Both the position numbers and the translations under genes were made by a program. From NCBI GenBank assembly GCA_965287045.1, contig OZ336890.1:25296001-25360000 (forward strand): 64,000 bases of DNA, in the 5' to 3' direction. Below are positions 1,984 to 48,703 of this stretch, in pieces (position 1 is the first letter of the stretch; the number at the start of each line of letters is the position of its first letter). The notes beneath the pieces were generated by a model. The model saw nothing but the letters and a program-made list of their open reading frames with translations, did no database searches and was not told the DNA's origin. The DNA is from Carcharhinus amblyrhynchos. Taxonomy: Eukaryota.

Positions 1984-3610
1984 AACGTGTCCTTTTACAC
2001 TGTGATGTTGCTGTCAAACACTATGCCTCGACAATGAGGTTTAATTAGGTTTTAGACAGTGTGCTCAGTCTCAACTACTGCTGAAAAACCTCTCTAGCCT
2101 TGGAAAACTGAATTTACATTTGTGTAATGTCCACTCTGATTAAAAAAAGAAATCAATAGTCTTTTAATATATGTACCCCAAACTTTATTATGTTATCATT
2201 TCTTTTAATAAATATTACAATAAATGTATTTATTTCTTAGTTTGTTGTCAATGGGAATACTTGAATGGGATGGGTTGCCTACCCTGCTTGATGACATCAC
2301 TGTCGCTGGATGCCAGGTAATCCCCTTGATGCCAGATTCAACTTAATGTCAAGGAAGATGAAATTTGCGCCACAGAGATTGTTAGATCTTTGTGGGCAGC
2401 TTTCTTCGAGGTCAGCGGAGATTGCTGTTGCTTCACAGCTGATGGCAAAACCTGGGCTATAGTAAACTGAAATGCAAGAGAGCATTTTGATTGTAATCTT
2501 CACAAAGTTCTTGTAATTAAGTGTACATTGCTTGTTATCAATACCGATTCACCAGTGATGCATGTAATACATTGCACTGGTCTCAGTTCAGCAAATGTAC
2601 TAATCTATCATGAATGCCAAAAATACTGTTCTGCTGTGTTCCAGAAGTCTCCAGTGCTGTGAGGCAACAAAGGAAACAGCCTAACCTCCAAGACATTTCT
2701 ATTTTTCTGCTTCCAGCTAAGCCTTGCAAATTTCAAGTTGAAAGAATTGAGCATTAGCATTATGCTGAAGCCTTATAGATTAATTCCCATGGGATTCATT
2801 TAATATCAGAGATCATTAGTGAGACTTGAGGTGAACACAAAAACTAATGGAAATGAGTAACAAAAAAAAACACATCAAAGATGGCTCAGAACAACTGCAA
2901 GAGTACTCTTTGTTCTAAAAGCTTTTAAAATATATCCACCTGGTGAGGCATGTATTCTTCTATCTCAGTGATGTTAGTGACTGGGGATGTTGCTCTTCAC
3001 ATTTTTTTAGGAAACAAAGCAGTGGATATATCAACTGTCCCCAGCACAGGAAGTGTTTGAACAAGATTATATGACTATTATTAGAGCAGAATATTCTGTC
3101 TAAAATAACAAAGAAAACACAAAGTAGCTGTGCCCTATTTTGACAATGTGTATTGTTTTTAATCAATGATCTTGAGATTCTATCTATTAGCATTGGCAGT
3201 AAGCAAAAGTGGAGTGAAACCCTGTCCTTGGAATCCTCAAGTGCTCATATATTTATACTGCAAATCAAGTAATTTCAATGCAGAAATCAGATGCTCTTAG
3301 AAAATAAAAACAGTTTTCCTTGGCTATCAAGTGGCTTTAATTGGCAGTTTGCATTATCAGCTAGGGTTTTCACAGAGTTTTTTTTTAAAGAAACACATTG
3401 ACTGCAAGTCCTACACCAACTTTTAAACCAATGGGAAACACCAAACCAGGCACCATGATTCCCTTTGTGAAATGAAGGCACCTGCTGCAGGAAATATGTT
3501 TAGGTACGGAAGATTGGAAAGGAGGAAATGGAAAATGCACACAAACTGATCAATGGAAAAAGACGAAGTAGACATTTAAAGTAGGGAAAAGAGAAAGATT
3601 GGACCTGCAC

Positions 3611-3703
3611 CTCTATTTTACGACCTTCTACGATTGTTCCATTTAATTTCTCCCGTGCCCTGTCCGCGTCAGCACTGGTTTCGAAAGTTACGAAACCAAA
3701 TCC
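3611..3703 (-). CDS. RBFOX3: RBFOX3 93-nt cassette exon (RNP1, second half of RRM), phase 0/0
   Basis: Translates [31 protein letters not shown]; FETS and LNGTIVE are RBFOX3-type residues. Acceptor ttttccttttctcttacctgcatgcag, donor GAG|gtgcag. The 93-nt length matches the autoregulated RBFOX exon. Confidence 0.96.
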
Positions 3704-3706
3704 CTG

Positions 3707-3742
3707 CATGCAGGTAAGAGAAAAGGAAAAGAGAGACATGCA
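3707..3742 (-). promoter_or_regulatory. Two UGCAUG RBFOX-binding elements at the 3' splice site and branch region of the 93-nt exon
   Basis: Plus-strand CATGCA at 3707-3712 and 3737-3742 equals TGCATG on the transcribed strand, at -9..-4 and -39..-34 from the exon. Confidence 0.85.
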
Positions 3743-6553
3743 TATGATTATACAGGGAATAAGACAGTCTTTTGATATGTTTCAGTACACCAGCTGGAAC
3801 ATCAAGATAGCAAAGTCATTCTACGAGGCCACAGAGCAACCGGATCCAAGAAGGTGAAATGGAAAGTATACTGAGAGGGAAAGATATAGTCGCTGCATTT
3901 GAAAACATATAGTTAGATTATTTACACATTTATTGTAGTTGCAGTTCTCCTGCAGTGAGCTTGCTAGGATCTTGTATTTGATATTTCTGCCATAGGTAAG
4001 GAAGATCAGTTTTCAATGATGGTGACTAAAAATGAGGAGGACCATTAGAAAATAAACAACTCTAACCTGGATCAGACCATTTTAATTTTCTACAGCTCAG
4101 TTTAAGCCCAAATGAAGATCCTTTGCATCACATCACTTTTTTTTTGAAAAGTAACCGGTGAGATCAATTATAAAACATATTAAAATAATTTCCAGTTTTG
4201 TTTCTTGCTTATGGGCTGACATACAATTACATTAGTTTTTGGTGTATTTGATGGAGGCAGGTCAAACCATACTGTCCTGGTTTTAAAACTGACCTTTATA
4301 GTTCACAACATTCATATCTATACAGAAAGTATATAAGATTAAACAAAAATTAGTCAAGGCTGAATGTTACTGTATCCAAATGAAATATATAATAGCACCG
4401 GCCTTTTCTTTGTAGTGCAGGTAGCAAAGGTCTTGAAAGAGAATGGTTGTATTAATTTTGGTTTTATTTTAATTGTATGCCATATCTGCAGGCATCAATC
4501 ATAAACACAAATCTGTTTGGTTTTAGTTTAGTCTTGTAATGGCTGTTAAAATGGGCAAACCACTCATAGGTCCCCTTTGTTTAGTGCACATTCAGCAGGC
4601 CTAGCAAAGCAATTGATTATTAATGTTATGCATGAACTTATGTGCATAGAGGAGAACTCCAAGTAATGGTTCTGTCAGGCACATACTTCCACAAGCAGCG
4701 TGTGTGAAGCTTTGCTGTCTGTATTGTGCGTGAAGCTGTTCAGAGTGTGGAGGTGCAGCTCTTGTGATTCCTGACAAAAATACAGAGGCTTGGTTTAAAC
4801 ACAAACGATCATGGTGCTGCTCATGTCATAATCTTGCAGAGAACTGACAGCCGTGACAGCTTTCCACAGTTGTAAGGAGTCTGGCATTGGAGAGGATATC
4901 CTCATCAAATCCACTAGTCTGCATGGATCTAGACCCAATTTCTGTGCAGTCAGCTAAACAGATATTGGATCACTGGAGTAGATATTGGCTTTGTAGTACT
5001 CAAAGGTTGCCAACAGTGGCAAGGAGAGCCTAGTTTTCTTGAGAATTCTCACTTTTCTGCCAAGCACCCTAGCCCACTTGCTTTTCCCAGTCTAGGTCAG
5101 ATGTGATTACCAAGTCAAAGTGCTGAATCATTGTAATTAGAGAGAGCTTGAACACATTAGTGTGGGGAAAGGTTGAAAACACCACAATCAATCATTTTCA
5201 ACAGAGCTATTGATTGGTCCCCCCTGCTGCTGAAGGTTGCCATTTGGCCATCTTATTTTGAGTGCTGTATCAGCCTTGACTGATTTGGTTTTTGCTAGCC
5301 TTTCATGTGTATAATTAACCATTCTATGGAAGCTGGTATCATCAAGAAAGGAGATAATGCCTCCCCTAAAATATGTATTGGGTGTTAACGAAGGAGCCAA
5401 ATATATTCCAGACAAAGACTCAGTGATGTTCTGACAATAAGACAAATTAAAAGAGAACTAGTGTCCAATTGGAAAATAATCTGTTCAGGACATGGCATCT
5501 CATCTTCTCATTGAAGCTTATAAGACCCTTAAAATGACATGGCTGATGTTCTTCCCTGATACTGGCAATTGGGTGAATTGATTCATTTTAGACTAGTAAT
5601 TAAAATACGCACAAATTTGCTTGCTAGTCAAATGAATATCTATATAACAGATTGTTAGAGGTTAAATACTGAAACAACTTTTGCTTCTCATGGCTTTCAT
5701 TAGTCTCCATTTGTTGATGGAAGGGATATTACTTGAACAACAGTCTGGTCCCTATTTCAGGGTGGGTACAGCAATTGCTGCCTTCCAAACATTTAAGGGA
5801 ACTTCAACTGACAAATTCTGTTGAAAATAATAGATTGGAATCAACCAGCTTCTTGATAAGAACTCTAGTCAGACTATGGCTTAGTCACTCAGCCCAGTAA
5901 CACCTTTTGGTATCTTAAAGACAATTGATTTGGGTTTTGGATGATTGCTGCACATCAATGGAACAAAGCTACAGAATGTTGAATTGAGATGACTTAGAAA
6001 ATACGACAGAACACTTCAGCATTATCCACAGATTTGGGTCAAGTGACTCTGCTCTCCTGGATAAGGATTGCTCTGCTTTTTATACCGGAGGACTGAGAGT
6101 CAAGGATTGCAATTTTCTTTTTTAAAAAATAGGAGTTATTCAGCCTGCCCACTTAACAAATATAATAATCTATTAAAATGTTTTATAGTCTCATGCACAT
6201 GATTACAAGCTTGCCTGGTCATTATTTTTGTTTTCCTGGCTTCCAAAGCCACAGTATCCACATCGTATAAATTTTGCATGTCAGAGTGTTCTAATGTGGT
6301 AATTATAGTAATAAGTATCCTGTACGCCATTCCTCATAGAATAAAAAGTAACTGTTTTCCACTGCACATCAGAATGGCATCCTTCATCATAGTTAGAATC
6401 CTTATGCATGCAAAAACAATTGGTCCACTGTACTTAAAATGCAGTAGCCAAATAATGACTTCTAGTAGCCAAGAGCTACAGGAAATTTTCAAATCTTGTG
6501 ATTCCAGACCTTTTGTCAGACAGAGGATACACATAACATTGTATTAGACTTAC

Positions 6554-6557
6554 CCTG
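6554..6557 (-). other. Candidate 4-nt (or 1-nt) frameshifting microexon in the RBFOX3 intron
   Basis: Minus strand reads gttaattgtctttttctctctctttcctgtcTAG-CAGG-GTAAGT: branch-like TTAAT, long pyrimidine tract, AG, 4 nt, then a consensus donor. Confidence 0.5.
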
Positions 6558-7152
6558 CTAGACAGGAAAGAGAGAGAAAAAGACAATTAACATCTTCAAT
6601 TGCCTTGTAATTAGACTGTTTGTTAATCTCTTCTTGTAATCATATTCATACCATAAACTAGAAAGTTGTATCTTACGTGCTGAAAGGGGTTTACATTCTT
6701 TTGCAAACTAAATTGCTTAAGCAAGCTTAACCCTTCAACCACCAAAGCAGCCTCCCAGCCGAATTTCAAATGCTCTTCCTTACTTTGAAAATGCATTTCA
6801 TATAGATCTCATCTTTTATAAATGCCATTTATCCATTCAGCGTTAAATCTGTTTAATCTGATTATCATCTTCTGGTGGCATATCTTTCTGCCGTTTGTGC
6901 CAATAAGATAGATAAGAACCTACAAAGGACAGTGTTTCTTTTCCCGTATTTCGACTTAATATGGTTGGGTGAGAAAATAAAAAAAAATTGTGTTTCTAAG
7001 TTATTTTATGTTTATAAGACAAAATCAGGAAAAACTGATAAACTATTCCAGAGGAACTGCAGATGTTTTGAGAAATTTTTCTCAAATTAATTCTATTTGT
7101 GCAGGATAAGAAGAGGATAGTGGCAGCTCTAAGGAAATGCTAACATTTTGTT

Positions 7153-10838: not shown

Positions 10839-10892
10839 CTTAGAACCCCGCTCATTAAAAATTATTTCAACGTCTAAAATTTTACCAAATTG
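10839..10892 (-). CDS. RBFOX3: RBFOX3 coding exon (RRM middle), 54 nt, phase 0/0
   Basis: Not in the ORF track; read by hand as CAA TTT GGT AAA ATT TTA GAC GTT GAA ATA ATT TTT AAT GAG CGG GGT TCT AAG = QFGKILDVEIIFNERGSK. Acceptor ctcttgtttcttttacag, donor AAG|gtaagc. In frame with both neighbouring exons. Confidence 0.96.
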
Positions 10893-21920: not shown

Positions 21921-23131
21921 TCAAACGGGACCTTCACCATATGGCAGCCCGTGCTGAATAAAGGGATTGGCCCTGCCTTTCTCTCCCCAACTCTACTCCA
22001 TTGCAAAGGAGTTCTCCAAGGGGTGCTGCACTCTGTGTCTCTGGGGAATCCAAGCTGGGGAGGAGAAACATGAAGCAGCATTGAGTTGGGGAAATATTTG
22101 AATGGAGTGGCAATCCGATGATGATTGCTACTCCTTGGAAGATCTGGGCCAGCTAGTTAGCAGAAATTAAGCAATCTCAGATTTAAAATGGAGAATTGGT
22201 CCAGCATCCATTGTGGTTTGCAGCATTGTGATCAGTAAAAATTGCAACAACAACATTACTTTAGGCACATAGAATCCCTACAGTGCAGAAGAAGGCCATT
22301 CAGCTCATTAGGCCCTATATCCATAACCCCAGGTATTTACCTTGCAAGTCTCCCTGACACTGCTCTAATTTTAGTCAAAAATCCCTTACACATGTGAATA
22401 TTTACTTAATACTTACTACCAGTCAGAAACCATGGAAGGAAAGCACTCTTAACAACAAATGCACATTCTGCTTTTCATCTAGCCACCGTACCAACAATTG
22501 CATTAAATATTAAAAGCCACATGAGATCACATGTCAAGTGATGGTGTCTATCGACCACTTGCATTTACTAATCAGAAATGTCACTGGCCACATCTGGCTT
22601 CCAACAAGCCCACTTCCATTCCAAATTTGCATAGGATTTTATAATAGGAATATGAATTAAGGGCAATATATTTGACATGGGGATTGAATTATATTTGTGC
22701 ACGTTTGTTCAATTACCTCTTTCTCGAACCCCACTTCACCTGAAGATAATGTTGGGAGTGTTACACAGCTACATAACCACACATGGCCATAAATATGTAT
22801 CTCCATAGTTAATATGCAGCCAGTGAGTTTGTCAAGTATTTCATCATCCAAATGGCCTTTAAATATTACCTCTTATCAAAAGTAAAAATCATTTTGATCT
22901 CCACAGGTGGCTGCATCACTTTAAATTTAATTATTATTCACTGCGGGCAGTCATTTAAGGGGTTATTTTCATGCAACTTTCTGTTTTTTTCCAACAACTT
23001 GCAGTGCCAGCACCAACATGGGCTGAAGGTTGGGGTCACATTATGTAAATACAACTGAACTCCACTTATGCAATTAAACAATTGAAAAATCTACCCCTTC
23101 ATGTTGAGCCTTACACCTGAGCTGTAGTCAG

Positions 23132-48562: not shown

Positions 48563-48703
48563 CCCAAACATTTGTCGCAGGTCAGGGTCTCTGAATCGGA
48601 AGGGAATGTTGGAGACATGTAACCTTTTGGGCTGCTGTTTCTCTGTGGTCTCTGATGACTGTAGCGGCTGTGACGAATCTGTCTGTGCGGCTTCATCTGT
48701 CTG
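48563..48703 (-). CDS. RBFOX3: RBFOX3 coding exon (end of N-terminal region and RRM start with RNP2), 141 nt, phase 0/0
   Basis: Translates [47 protein letters not shown]. The [22 protein letters not shown] block is the RBFOX RRM start; [10 protein letters not shown] and EKQQPK match RBFOX3 as I recall it. Acceptor ttttgctgttcctccag (AG 48705-48704; tandem CAGCAG, alternative start 48700). Donor GGG|gtaggt. Confidence 0.95.

What the first reader, a model, noticed from the sequence alone, without database searches (positions are those of the whole stretch)
6548..6592. Candidate 4-nt poison microexon in RBFOX3, with downstream RBFOX sites
Seen: on the transcribed strand, apparently non-repeat DNA reads gTTAATtgtctttttctctctctttcctgtcTAG|CAGG|GTAAGT. 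That is a branch-like motif about 30 nt upstream, a 25-nt almost pure pyrimidine tract, a TAG/CAG tandem acceptor and a perfect donor 4 nt (or 1 nt) later. UGCAUG occurs about 140 nt (6407-6412) and about 355 nt (6192-6197) downstream. Either acceptor shifts the frame by +1: ...AAG CAG GGG ATT TGG TTT CGT AAC TTT CGA AAC CAG TGC TGA, stopping at 3671-3669 inside the RNP1 exon. Established: RBFOX bound downstream of an exon promotes inclusion, and cryptic NMD-inducing exons are reported near this region of mammalian RBFOX2. Inference: this is a second feedback arm (microexon inclusion leading to NMD), or a recursive-splicing-like site. Aligners would usually misread a 1-4 nt exon as an indel, so it could have been overlooked. 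I do not know of it being described.
Basis: partly seen in the sequence, partly recalled or inferred. Interest (0 to 1): 0.75.

Follow-up and report, generated by a model that had tools for sequence, protein, structure and literature searches.

The report
Candidate four-base poison exon in RBFOX3
In a shark-like RBFOX3 gene, the strongest splice acceptor and donor inside one intron sit four bases apart and are unchanged in two related organisms, which likely marks a tiny exon that would shift the reading frame and destroy the message, but no RNA read has yet shown it being used.

Summary
The sequence is as described. On the minus strand, intron 5 of a cartilaginous-fish RBFOX3 gene (between the 54-nt and 93-nt RRM exons) holds a pyrimidine tract, tandem TAG/CAG acceptors and a GTAAGT donor. 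Either choice (4 nt or 1 nt) shifts the frame to a stop in the 93-nt exon. These are the best acceptor of 234 and the best donor of 357 inside this 7.1-kb intron, and chance is about 0.03-0.15 per 64-kb strand. Two other organisms, about 5% divergent in the upstream flank, keep the motif, its three Gs and both downstream UGCAUG unchanged, inside a ~500-nt block with fewer changes. The motif-only conservation test is not significant (P 0.14-0.17). No splicing was observed. The site is not a classical zero-length recursive site (one extra G) and has no SRRM3/4-type UGC. Best reading: an RBFOX-promoted poison microexon, working like Rbfox2 exon 5* in the equivalent intron (0.40). Rivals: unused pseudo-exon (0.33), decoy exon (0.15), two-step use within a longer poison exon (0.12). 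Not found in ten literature searches. A credible, cheaply testable candidate, not shown.

The parts
6554..6557 (-). Candidate 4-nt microexon CAGG (or 1-nt G at 6554 if the distal CAG acceptor is used)
   Evidence: Sequence; no change or indel in runs X14 and X16; use in RNA not observed
6548..6553 (-). Donor GTAAGT; best predicted U1 pairing (-10.0 kcal/mol) of 357 internal GT in intron 5
6558..6584 (-). Pyrimidine tract with CUCU runs (PTBP-like, recalled motif) ending in the TAG acceptor; best of 234 internal YAG; no UGC in the 40 nt before the acceptor
6586..6590 (-).
6610..6614 (-). Distal branch-like CTAAT, A 54 nt upstream of the TAG acceptor
   Evidence: unchanged in X14 and X16
6407..6412 (-). 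UGCAUG 141 nt downstream of the donor (inside the ~200-nt activating zone)
   Evidence: unchanged in X14 and X16; position rule from PMC13542418 section 10
6192..6197 (-). Second downstream UGCAUG (~355 nt)
   Evidence: unchanged in X14 and X16
6150..6660 (-). Low-divergence block holding the element (lower limit not seen; boundaries post hoc)
   Evidence: 7 changed positions in 511 nt versus 29 in 460 nt upstream
10839..10892 (-). RBFOX3 54-nt RRM exon ('exon 5'), upstream partner
3611..3703 (-). RBFOX3 93-nt RRM exon ('exon 6'), the known autoregulated exon; holds the new stop (3671-3669); UGCAUG at 3742 and 3712 in its acceptor
48563..48703 (-). RBFOX3 'exon 4' used to name the gene
   Evidence: 98% identical to shark, ray and chimaera RBFOX3

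Best explanation
This is likely a regulated poison microexon: the intron's strongest acceptor and donor flank 4 nt (or 1 nt) that would be spliced between RRM exons 5 and 6 of RBFOX3, shift the frame by +1 and send the mRNA to nonsense-mediated decay. Shown: the signals, the frameshift, the stop 58 nt before the next junction, and no change in two relatives. Inferred: RBFOX proteins bound at the UGCAUG 141 nt downstream promote inclusion as their level rises, PTBP-type binding to the CU tract represses it in non-neural cells, and the two acceptors give the same frame so either choice kills the message. This would add a decay arm to the known exon-6-skipping arm, and would also put exon-6-skipped messages out of frame.
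For: Best acceptor of 234 and best donor of 357 in the intron lie 4 nt apart; about 0.004 if independent. It is the only strict pair on the 64-kb transcribed strand, expected 0.03-0.09. The same rule recovers real exons 4 and 5. Runs X14 and X16 span the stretch in one contig each with no change in 6527-6592, the three Gs kept, and none of 62 signal positions changed (permutation P 0.06). Changes are unevenly spread (change-point permutation P 0.001), and the block has 7 and 9 events against about 18-19 expected from the rest of the intron (P 0.003, 0.009; baseline estimated from word shares). Paralog precedent: Rbfox2 exon 5*. UGCAUG is enriched downstream of alternative micro-exons and frameshifting micro-exons exist (PMC4317164 passages).
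Against: Use in RNA was not observed. Motif-only conservation is not significant (P 0.14-0.17), the motif +/-100 nt has the average rate (9 changes, P 0.57), and the best change-point is at 6445, downstream of the motif. The relatives are close (about 5%) and share 21 of 36 changed positions. No UGC in the 40 nt before the acceptor, whereas 74-79% of SRRM3/4-dependent microexons have one, and shorter exons are recognised worse (10.1101/2024.09.17.613571 passages). UGCAUG density in this intron equals background. 0 of 16 other animal Rbfox intron-5 sequences, judged mostly invertebrate from their protein sequence, show a strict short pair. A looser rule gives 0.15 by chance, and the finding was picked from a scan of many windows.
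Confidence: 0.4

Rival explanations
1. Unused pseudo-exon: a CT tract and a GTAAGT happen to lie together, too close for joint recognition, and the low divergence belongs to a neighbouring element (for example UGCAUG-bearing control of exon 6, or an enhancer).
For: Chance up to 0.15 per strand with the loose rule and one antisense 15-nt pair; motif-only P 0.14-0.17 and best change-point at 6445; no UGC; Rbfox intron 5 is UGCAUG-rich in other animals without such an exon (1.93/kb in 16 introns).
Against: Best donor and best acceptor of the intron are adjacent (about 0.004); 134 nt around the motif carry one change (P 0.06); the same intron of Rbfox2 holds a known poison exon.
Confidence: 0.33
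2. Decoy exon: the strong sites engage the exon-5 donor or exon-6 acceptor without completing splicing, holding intron 5 in the nucleus or giving RBFOX time to skip exon 6; inclusion is a minor by-product.
For: Conserved cryptic non-coding cassettes in >1-kb introns of splicing-factor genes promote retention (PMC6097662 passages); a 1-4-nt exon is sterically hard to finish; intron is 7.1 kb.
Against: Described decoys are 29-56 nt or longer; no retention data here.
Confidence: 0.15
3. Two-step (recursive-linked) use: the acceptor opens a longer host exon defined by a downstream donor; after joining to exon 5 the internal GTAAGT is used unless the exon junction complex blocks it. Either product carries a stop (the read-through frame stops after 13 codons).
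For: Internal donors within 15 nt of an exon start give microexons by this route (PMC6224609 passages); read-through stop.
Against: No good downstream donor within 400 nt (best -4.8 to -5.0 versus -10.0 kcal/mol); not AG|GT, so no zero-length recursion; 6446-6526 changes at a neutral-like rate.
Confidence: 0.12

Closest known systems
Rbfox2 cryptic exons 5* (41 nt, intron 5) and 6* (71/74 nt, intron 6); Dredge and Jensen 2011, PMC3126832
   Same: Same gene family, equivalent intron for 5*, frameshift and NMD, RBFOX-driven
   Different: Different paralog (RBFOX3), 1-4 nt instead of 41 nt, +1 instead of +2 frame; homology to 5* could not be tested (its sequence is only in a figure); no RNA proof here
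RBFOX exon-6 (93-nt RRM exon) autoregulated skipping; PMC13542418 section 10
   Same: Same locus; UGCAUG at the exon-6 acceptor is present here and in many other animal loci; exon-6-less shark and skate proteins exist
   Different: That arm is in-frame and yields a dominant-negative protein; this candidate would trigger decay
Bak1 20-nt neural poison microexon (via PMC13542418, PMC4317164 supplement, 10.1101/2025.11.26.689062 passages)
   Same: Frameshifting microexon, PTBP1-repressed, NMD
   Different: Five to twenty times longer, not in a splicing-factor gene, experimentally proven
EJC-repressed cryptic microexons and RS-exons; PMC6224609
   Same: A donor a few nt after an acceptor
   Different: No strong host-exon donor found; not a zero-length AG|GT site

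Membership tests
RBFOX3 gene | Exon 4 and RRM peptides match RBFOX3 | tested here: met
   98% to chondrichthyan RBFOX3; exon 6 100%
Poison (AS-NMD) exon | Inclusion creates a stop more than 50-55 nt before a later junction | tested here: met
   TGA at 3671-3669, 58 nt before the end of exon 6
Poison (AS-NMD) exon | Junction reads exist and rise when NMD is blocked | not testable with these tools
   No RNA run was available to lay (see Tried and rejected)
Poison (AS-NMD) exon | Splice sites and flanks conserved above intron background | tested here: inconclusive
   Unchanged in 2 of 2 covering runs; block P 0.001-0.009 (post hoc), motif alone P 0.14-0.17
RBFOX-activated exon | UGCAUG within ~200 nt downstream | tested here: met
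   6412-6407, 141 nt downstream, unchanged in X14 and X16
RBFOX-activated exon | Binding and RBFOX-dependent inclusion | not testable with these tools
   Needs CLIP or a minigene
SRRM3/4-dependent neural microexon | UGC between branch point and AG | tested here: not met
   0 UGC in the 40 nt before the acceptor, none back to 6611 by reading the sequence; present in 74-79% of such exons, so not absolute
Classical recursive splice site | Acceptor AG directly followed by GT (zero-length) | tested here: not met
   One G lies between CAG and GTAAGT, also in X14 and X16
EJC-repressed cryptic microexon | Host exon with its own downstream donor | tested here: inconclusive
   Only weak donors within 400 nt
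Decoy exon | Promotes retention of the host intron | not testable with these tools
   Needs nuclear RNA-seq or a reporter

The most novel reading that the evidence does not exclude
RBFOX3 of cartilaginous fishes carries a selected, RBFOX-switched poison exon of only 4 or 1 nucleotides, without an SRRM3/4 UGC, whose tandem acceptors both give the same lethal frame. It would be one of the shortest regulated cassette exons in a vertebrate, would convert both full-length and dominant-negative RBFOX3 messages into decay targets, and would have been missed because its spliced form mimics one extra G at the exon-6 acceptor.
Probability: 0.3. Interest if true: 0.75.

Novelty: new variant of a known kind. 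Interest (0 to 1): 0.45.

Why it matters
If used, it would give RBFOX3 (NeuN) a decay-based feedback arm, which the papers I read report for Rbfox2 but not for Rbfox3, and supply a natural test case for how the spliceosome handles an exon of 1-4 nt. It also points to a blind spot: a mouse microexon catalogue filters only exons of 3 nt or more and a human one dropped those under 6 nt (PMC7821500, PMC4317164 passages), and here the included form looks like a one-base indel because exon 6 is itself preceded by CAG and starts with GG.

Tried and rejected
No whole genome is held. Run search on 3550-7100: no RNA holder listed, which says nothing on expression. Of 22 runs listed I laid 4: X18 showed only three short, under-90% pieces with unrelated flanks (a hole proves nothing) and X19 one 156-nt piece away from the motif; neither informs. 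One protein search found nothing because my reference was out of frame. Among 120 + 36 fetched proteins none shows the frameshifted continuation after exon 5, but decay isoforms are not expected in protein sets. A 14-aa insert after exon 5 in 5 skate (Rhinoraja) models has no likeness to this element and fits an exon-5 extension. The 80 metagenome loci look mostly invertebrate by protein sequence; none could be shown to be a vertebrate RBFOX3 ortholog. Hairpin over the proximal branch motif: z -1.67, -1.26, +0.58, not significant. An assembly homopolymer error hiding a true AG|GT site is rejected: the third G is in X14 and X16. Mouse MicroExonator supplements: no hit by gene name, recalled Ensembl ids or recalled coordinate prefixes; one file was too large to read and the table has no gene names, so this is weak. 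The human micro-exon supplement lists only a 42-nt RBFOX1 entry; one file was not searched. Damianov and Black 2010 is not held. Earlier scan notes: nothing on this locus or look-alikes. MaxEntScan and SpliceAI were not available; I used pyrimidine counts and U1 duplex energy instead.

Full report
Gene and place. The minus strand of the window carries three exons of an RBFOX gene: 48703-48563, 10892-10839 (54 nt) and 3703-3611 (93 nt); exon 7 is not in the window. The first exon is 98% identical to RBFOX3 of sharks, rays and chimaera, so the gene call stands. I number the exons 4, 5 and 6 after the Rbfox2 paper, in which exon 6 is the skipped RRM exon. The finding lies in the 7,135-nt intron 5.

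Observation. The motif is exactly as written. It is not part of a repeat found elsewhere in the window or of a tandem array. Using TAG gives a 4-nt exon and using CAG a 1-nt exon; both shift the frame by +1 to a TGA at 3671-3669, 58 nt before the end of exon 6. The donor is AGG|GTAAGT, strong but not full consensus. There is no UGC in the 40 nt before the acceptor. A second branch-like motif lies 54 nt upstream, a distance like that reported for neural microexons (median 45-47 nt; PMC12871342, passages).

Is it more than chance? Within intron 5 the best pyrimidine tract of 234 YAG and the best U1 pairing of 357 GT are this pair, 4 nt apart; about 0.004 if independent. On the whole transcribed strand it is the only strict acceptor-donor pair within 51 nt, with 0.03-0.09 expected by independence for gaps up to 10-30 nt and 0.03-0.07 in 60 local Markov shuffles. 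A looser rule raises the expectation to 0.15, gives one 15-nt pair on the antisense strand, and recovers real exons 4 and 5 plus one unannotated candidate at 22054. Two UGCAUG within 400 nt have P about 0.013 post hoc, but intron 5 as a whole is at background density, 0.42/kb.

Conservation. A run search gave 22 runs from 12 studies, none on record as RNA. I laid 4 of the 22 on 6150-7120. Two (X14, organism D; X16, organism E) span the stretch in one contig each, with 27 and 30 listed substitutions. Neither has a change in 6527-6592, the three Gs are kept, and both UGCAUG are kept. Changed positions number 7 in 6150-6660 against 29 in 6661-7120; a change-point test gives P 0.001, with the best break at 6445. 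Against the rest of the intron (about 3.5% per organism, estimated from word shares) the block has 7 and 9 events where 18-19 are expected (P 0.003 and 0.009). Against this: the 45-nt motif alone gives P 0.14-0.17, the 62 named signal positions P 0.06, the 134-nt run around the motif P 0.06, and the motif plus or minus 100 nt shows the average rate. The two organisms share 21 of 36 changed positions, so they are not independent. Constraint on the region is fairly supported; constraint on the splice sites themselves is suggested only. X18 and X19 did not cover the motif.

Other animals. Eighty metagenome loci with the 93-nt exon look mostly invertebrate by protein sequence. Many keep UGCAUG at the exon-6 acceptor and donor, showing the age of the skipping arm. 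In 16 complete intron-5 sequences picked from them (43.9 kb, near-duplicates and some short introns left out) there is no strict pair within 30 nt, and UGCAUG density is 1.93/kb. So UGCAUG in this intron need not point to a microexon. None of 156 fetched proteins shows the frameshifted form, which is expected for a decay isoform.

Mechanism. Shown: signals, frameshift, position of the stop, invariance in two relatives. From the literature: RBFOX bound within about 200 nt downstream promotes inclusion (PMC13542418 section 10); Rbfox3 promotes Rbfox2 exon 5* (41 nt, intron 5) and 6*, which accumulate under NMD block and are conserved to birds (PMC3126832, passages); UGCAUG is enriched downstream of alternative micro-exons (PMC4317164, passages). 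Inferred: rising RBFOX promotes this exon, CU runs allow PTBP repression (recalled motif), and inclusion removes the message. I give this 0.40. An unused pseudo-exon gets 0.33, because exons this short are poorly recognised and the UGC is missing (10.1101/2024.09.17.613571, passages). A decoy exon gets 0.15 (PMC6097662, passages). Two-step use inside a longer host exon gets 0.12 (PMC6224609, passages); its weakness is the lack of a good downstream donor. A classical zero-length recursive site is rejected: one G separates CAG from GT, and it is not an assembly error.

Why it could be missed. The sequence shows that exon 6 is preceded by CAG and starts with GG, so the 4-nt form reads as those genomic bases plus one extra G, and the 1-nt form as one extra G in a G run. 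MicroExonator lists exons under 3 nt apart without filtering, and common aligners lose sensitivity under 8-10 nt (PMC7821500, passages).

Novelty. Ten literature searches (listings and abstract starts seen, passages of the papers cited above) showed no microexon or poison exon in RBFOX3 intron 5. Supplement checks were weak, subscription papers are not covered, bioRxiv supplements are closed, and VastDB could not be consulted. Other papers seen as passages only, without bearing on the claim: 10.1101/2024.09.09.612108, PMC13247117, 10.1101/2025.11.26.689062, PMC5577181. Poison exons in RBFOX genes and poison microexons (Bak1) are known kinds; a 1-4-nt one in RBFOX3 would be a new variant.

Verdict. 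Observation confirmed, interpretation partly supported. A credible, sharply testable candidate with statistical and shallow comparative support and no RNA proof. Interest 0.45; 0.75 if shown.

Noticed in passing
window 3742-3704 and 3610-3603, minus strand: Two UGCAUG in the exon-6 acceptor, one overlapping the 3' splice site, as in many other animal Rbfox loci; the donor here reads GTGCAG where many loci have GTGCATG.
   Followed up: partly
P0026, P0030, P0121, P0127, P0145 (skate RBFOX3 models): In-frame 14-aa insert between RRM exons 5 and 6 in 5 models, absent in others of the same species; fits a 42-nt exon-5 extension and would interrupt the RRM.
   Followed up: partly
window 6150-6445: The least changed part of the laid stretch (1 substitution, 2 indels in 296 nt); may extend below 6150 and may be its own regulatory element. 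The window lacks 15 nt that both relatives carry at 6367.
   Followed up: partly
window 22054-21840, minus strand: A strong acceptor followed 172-221 nt later by several strong donors in a G-rich stretch of intron 4; possible cryptic exon or repeat-derived.
   Followed up: no
window 48703 and 48700: Exon 4 has a CAGCAG tandem acceptor; both forms appear among shark proteins.
   Followed up: partly
window 54722-54209, minus strand: Cluster of four UGCAUG in about 510 nt upstream of exon 4.
   Followed up: no
window 11007, minus strand: A second strong acceptor 115 nt upstream of the exon-5 acceptor, which would shift the frame if used.
   Followed up: no
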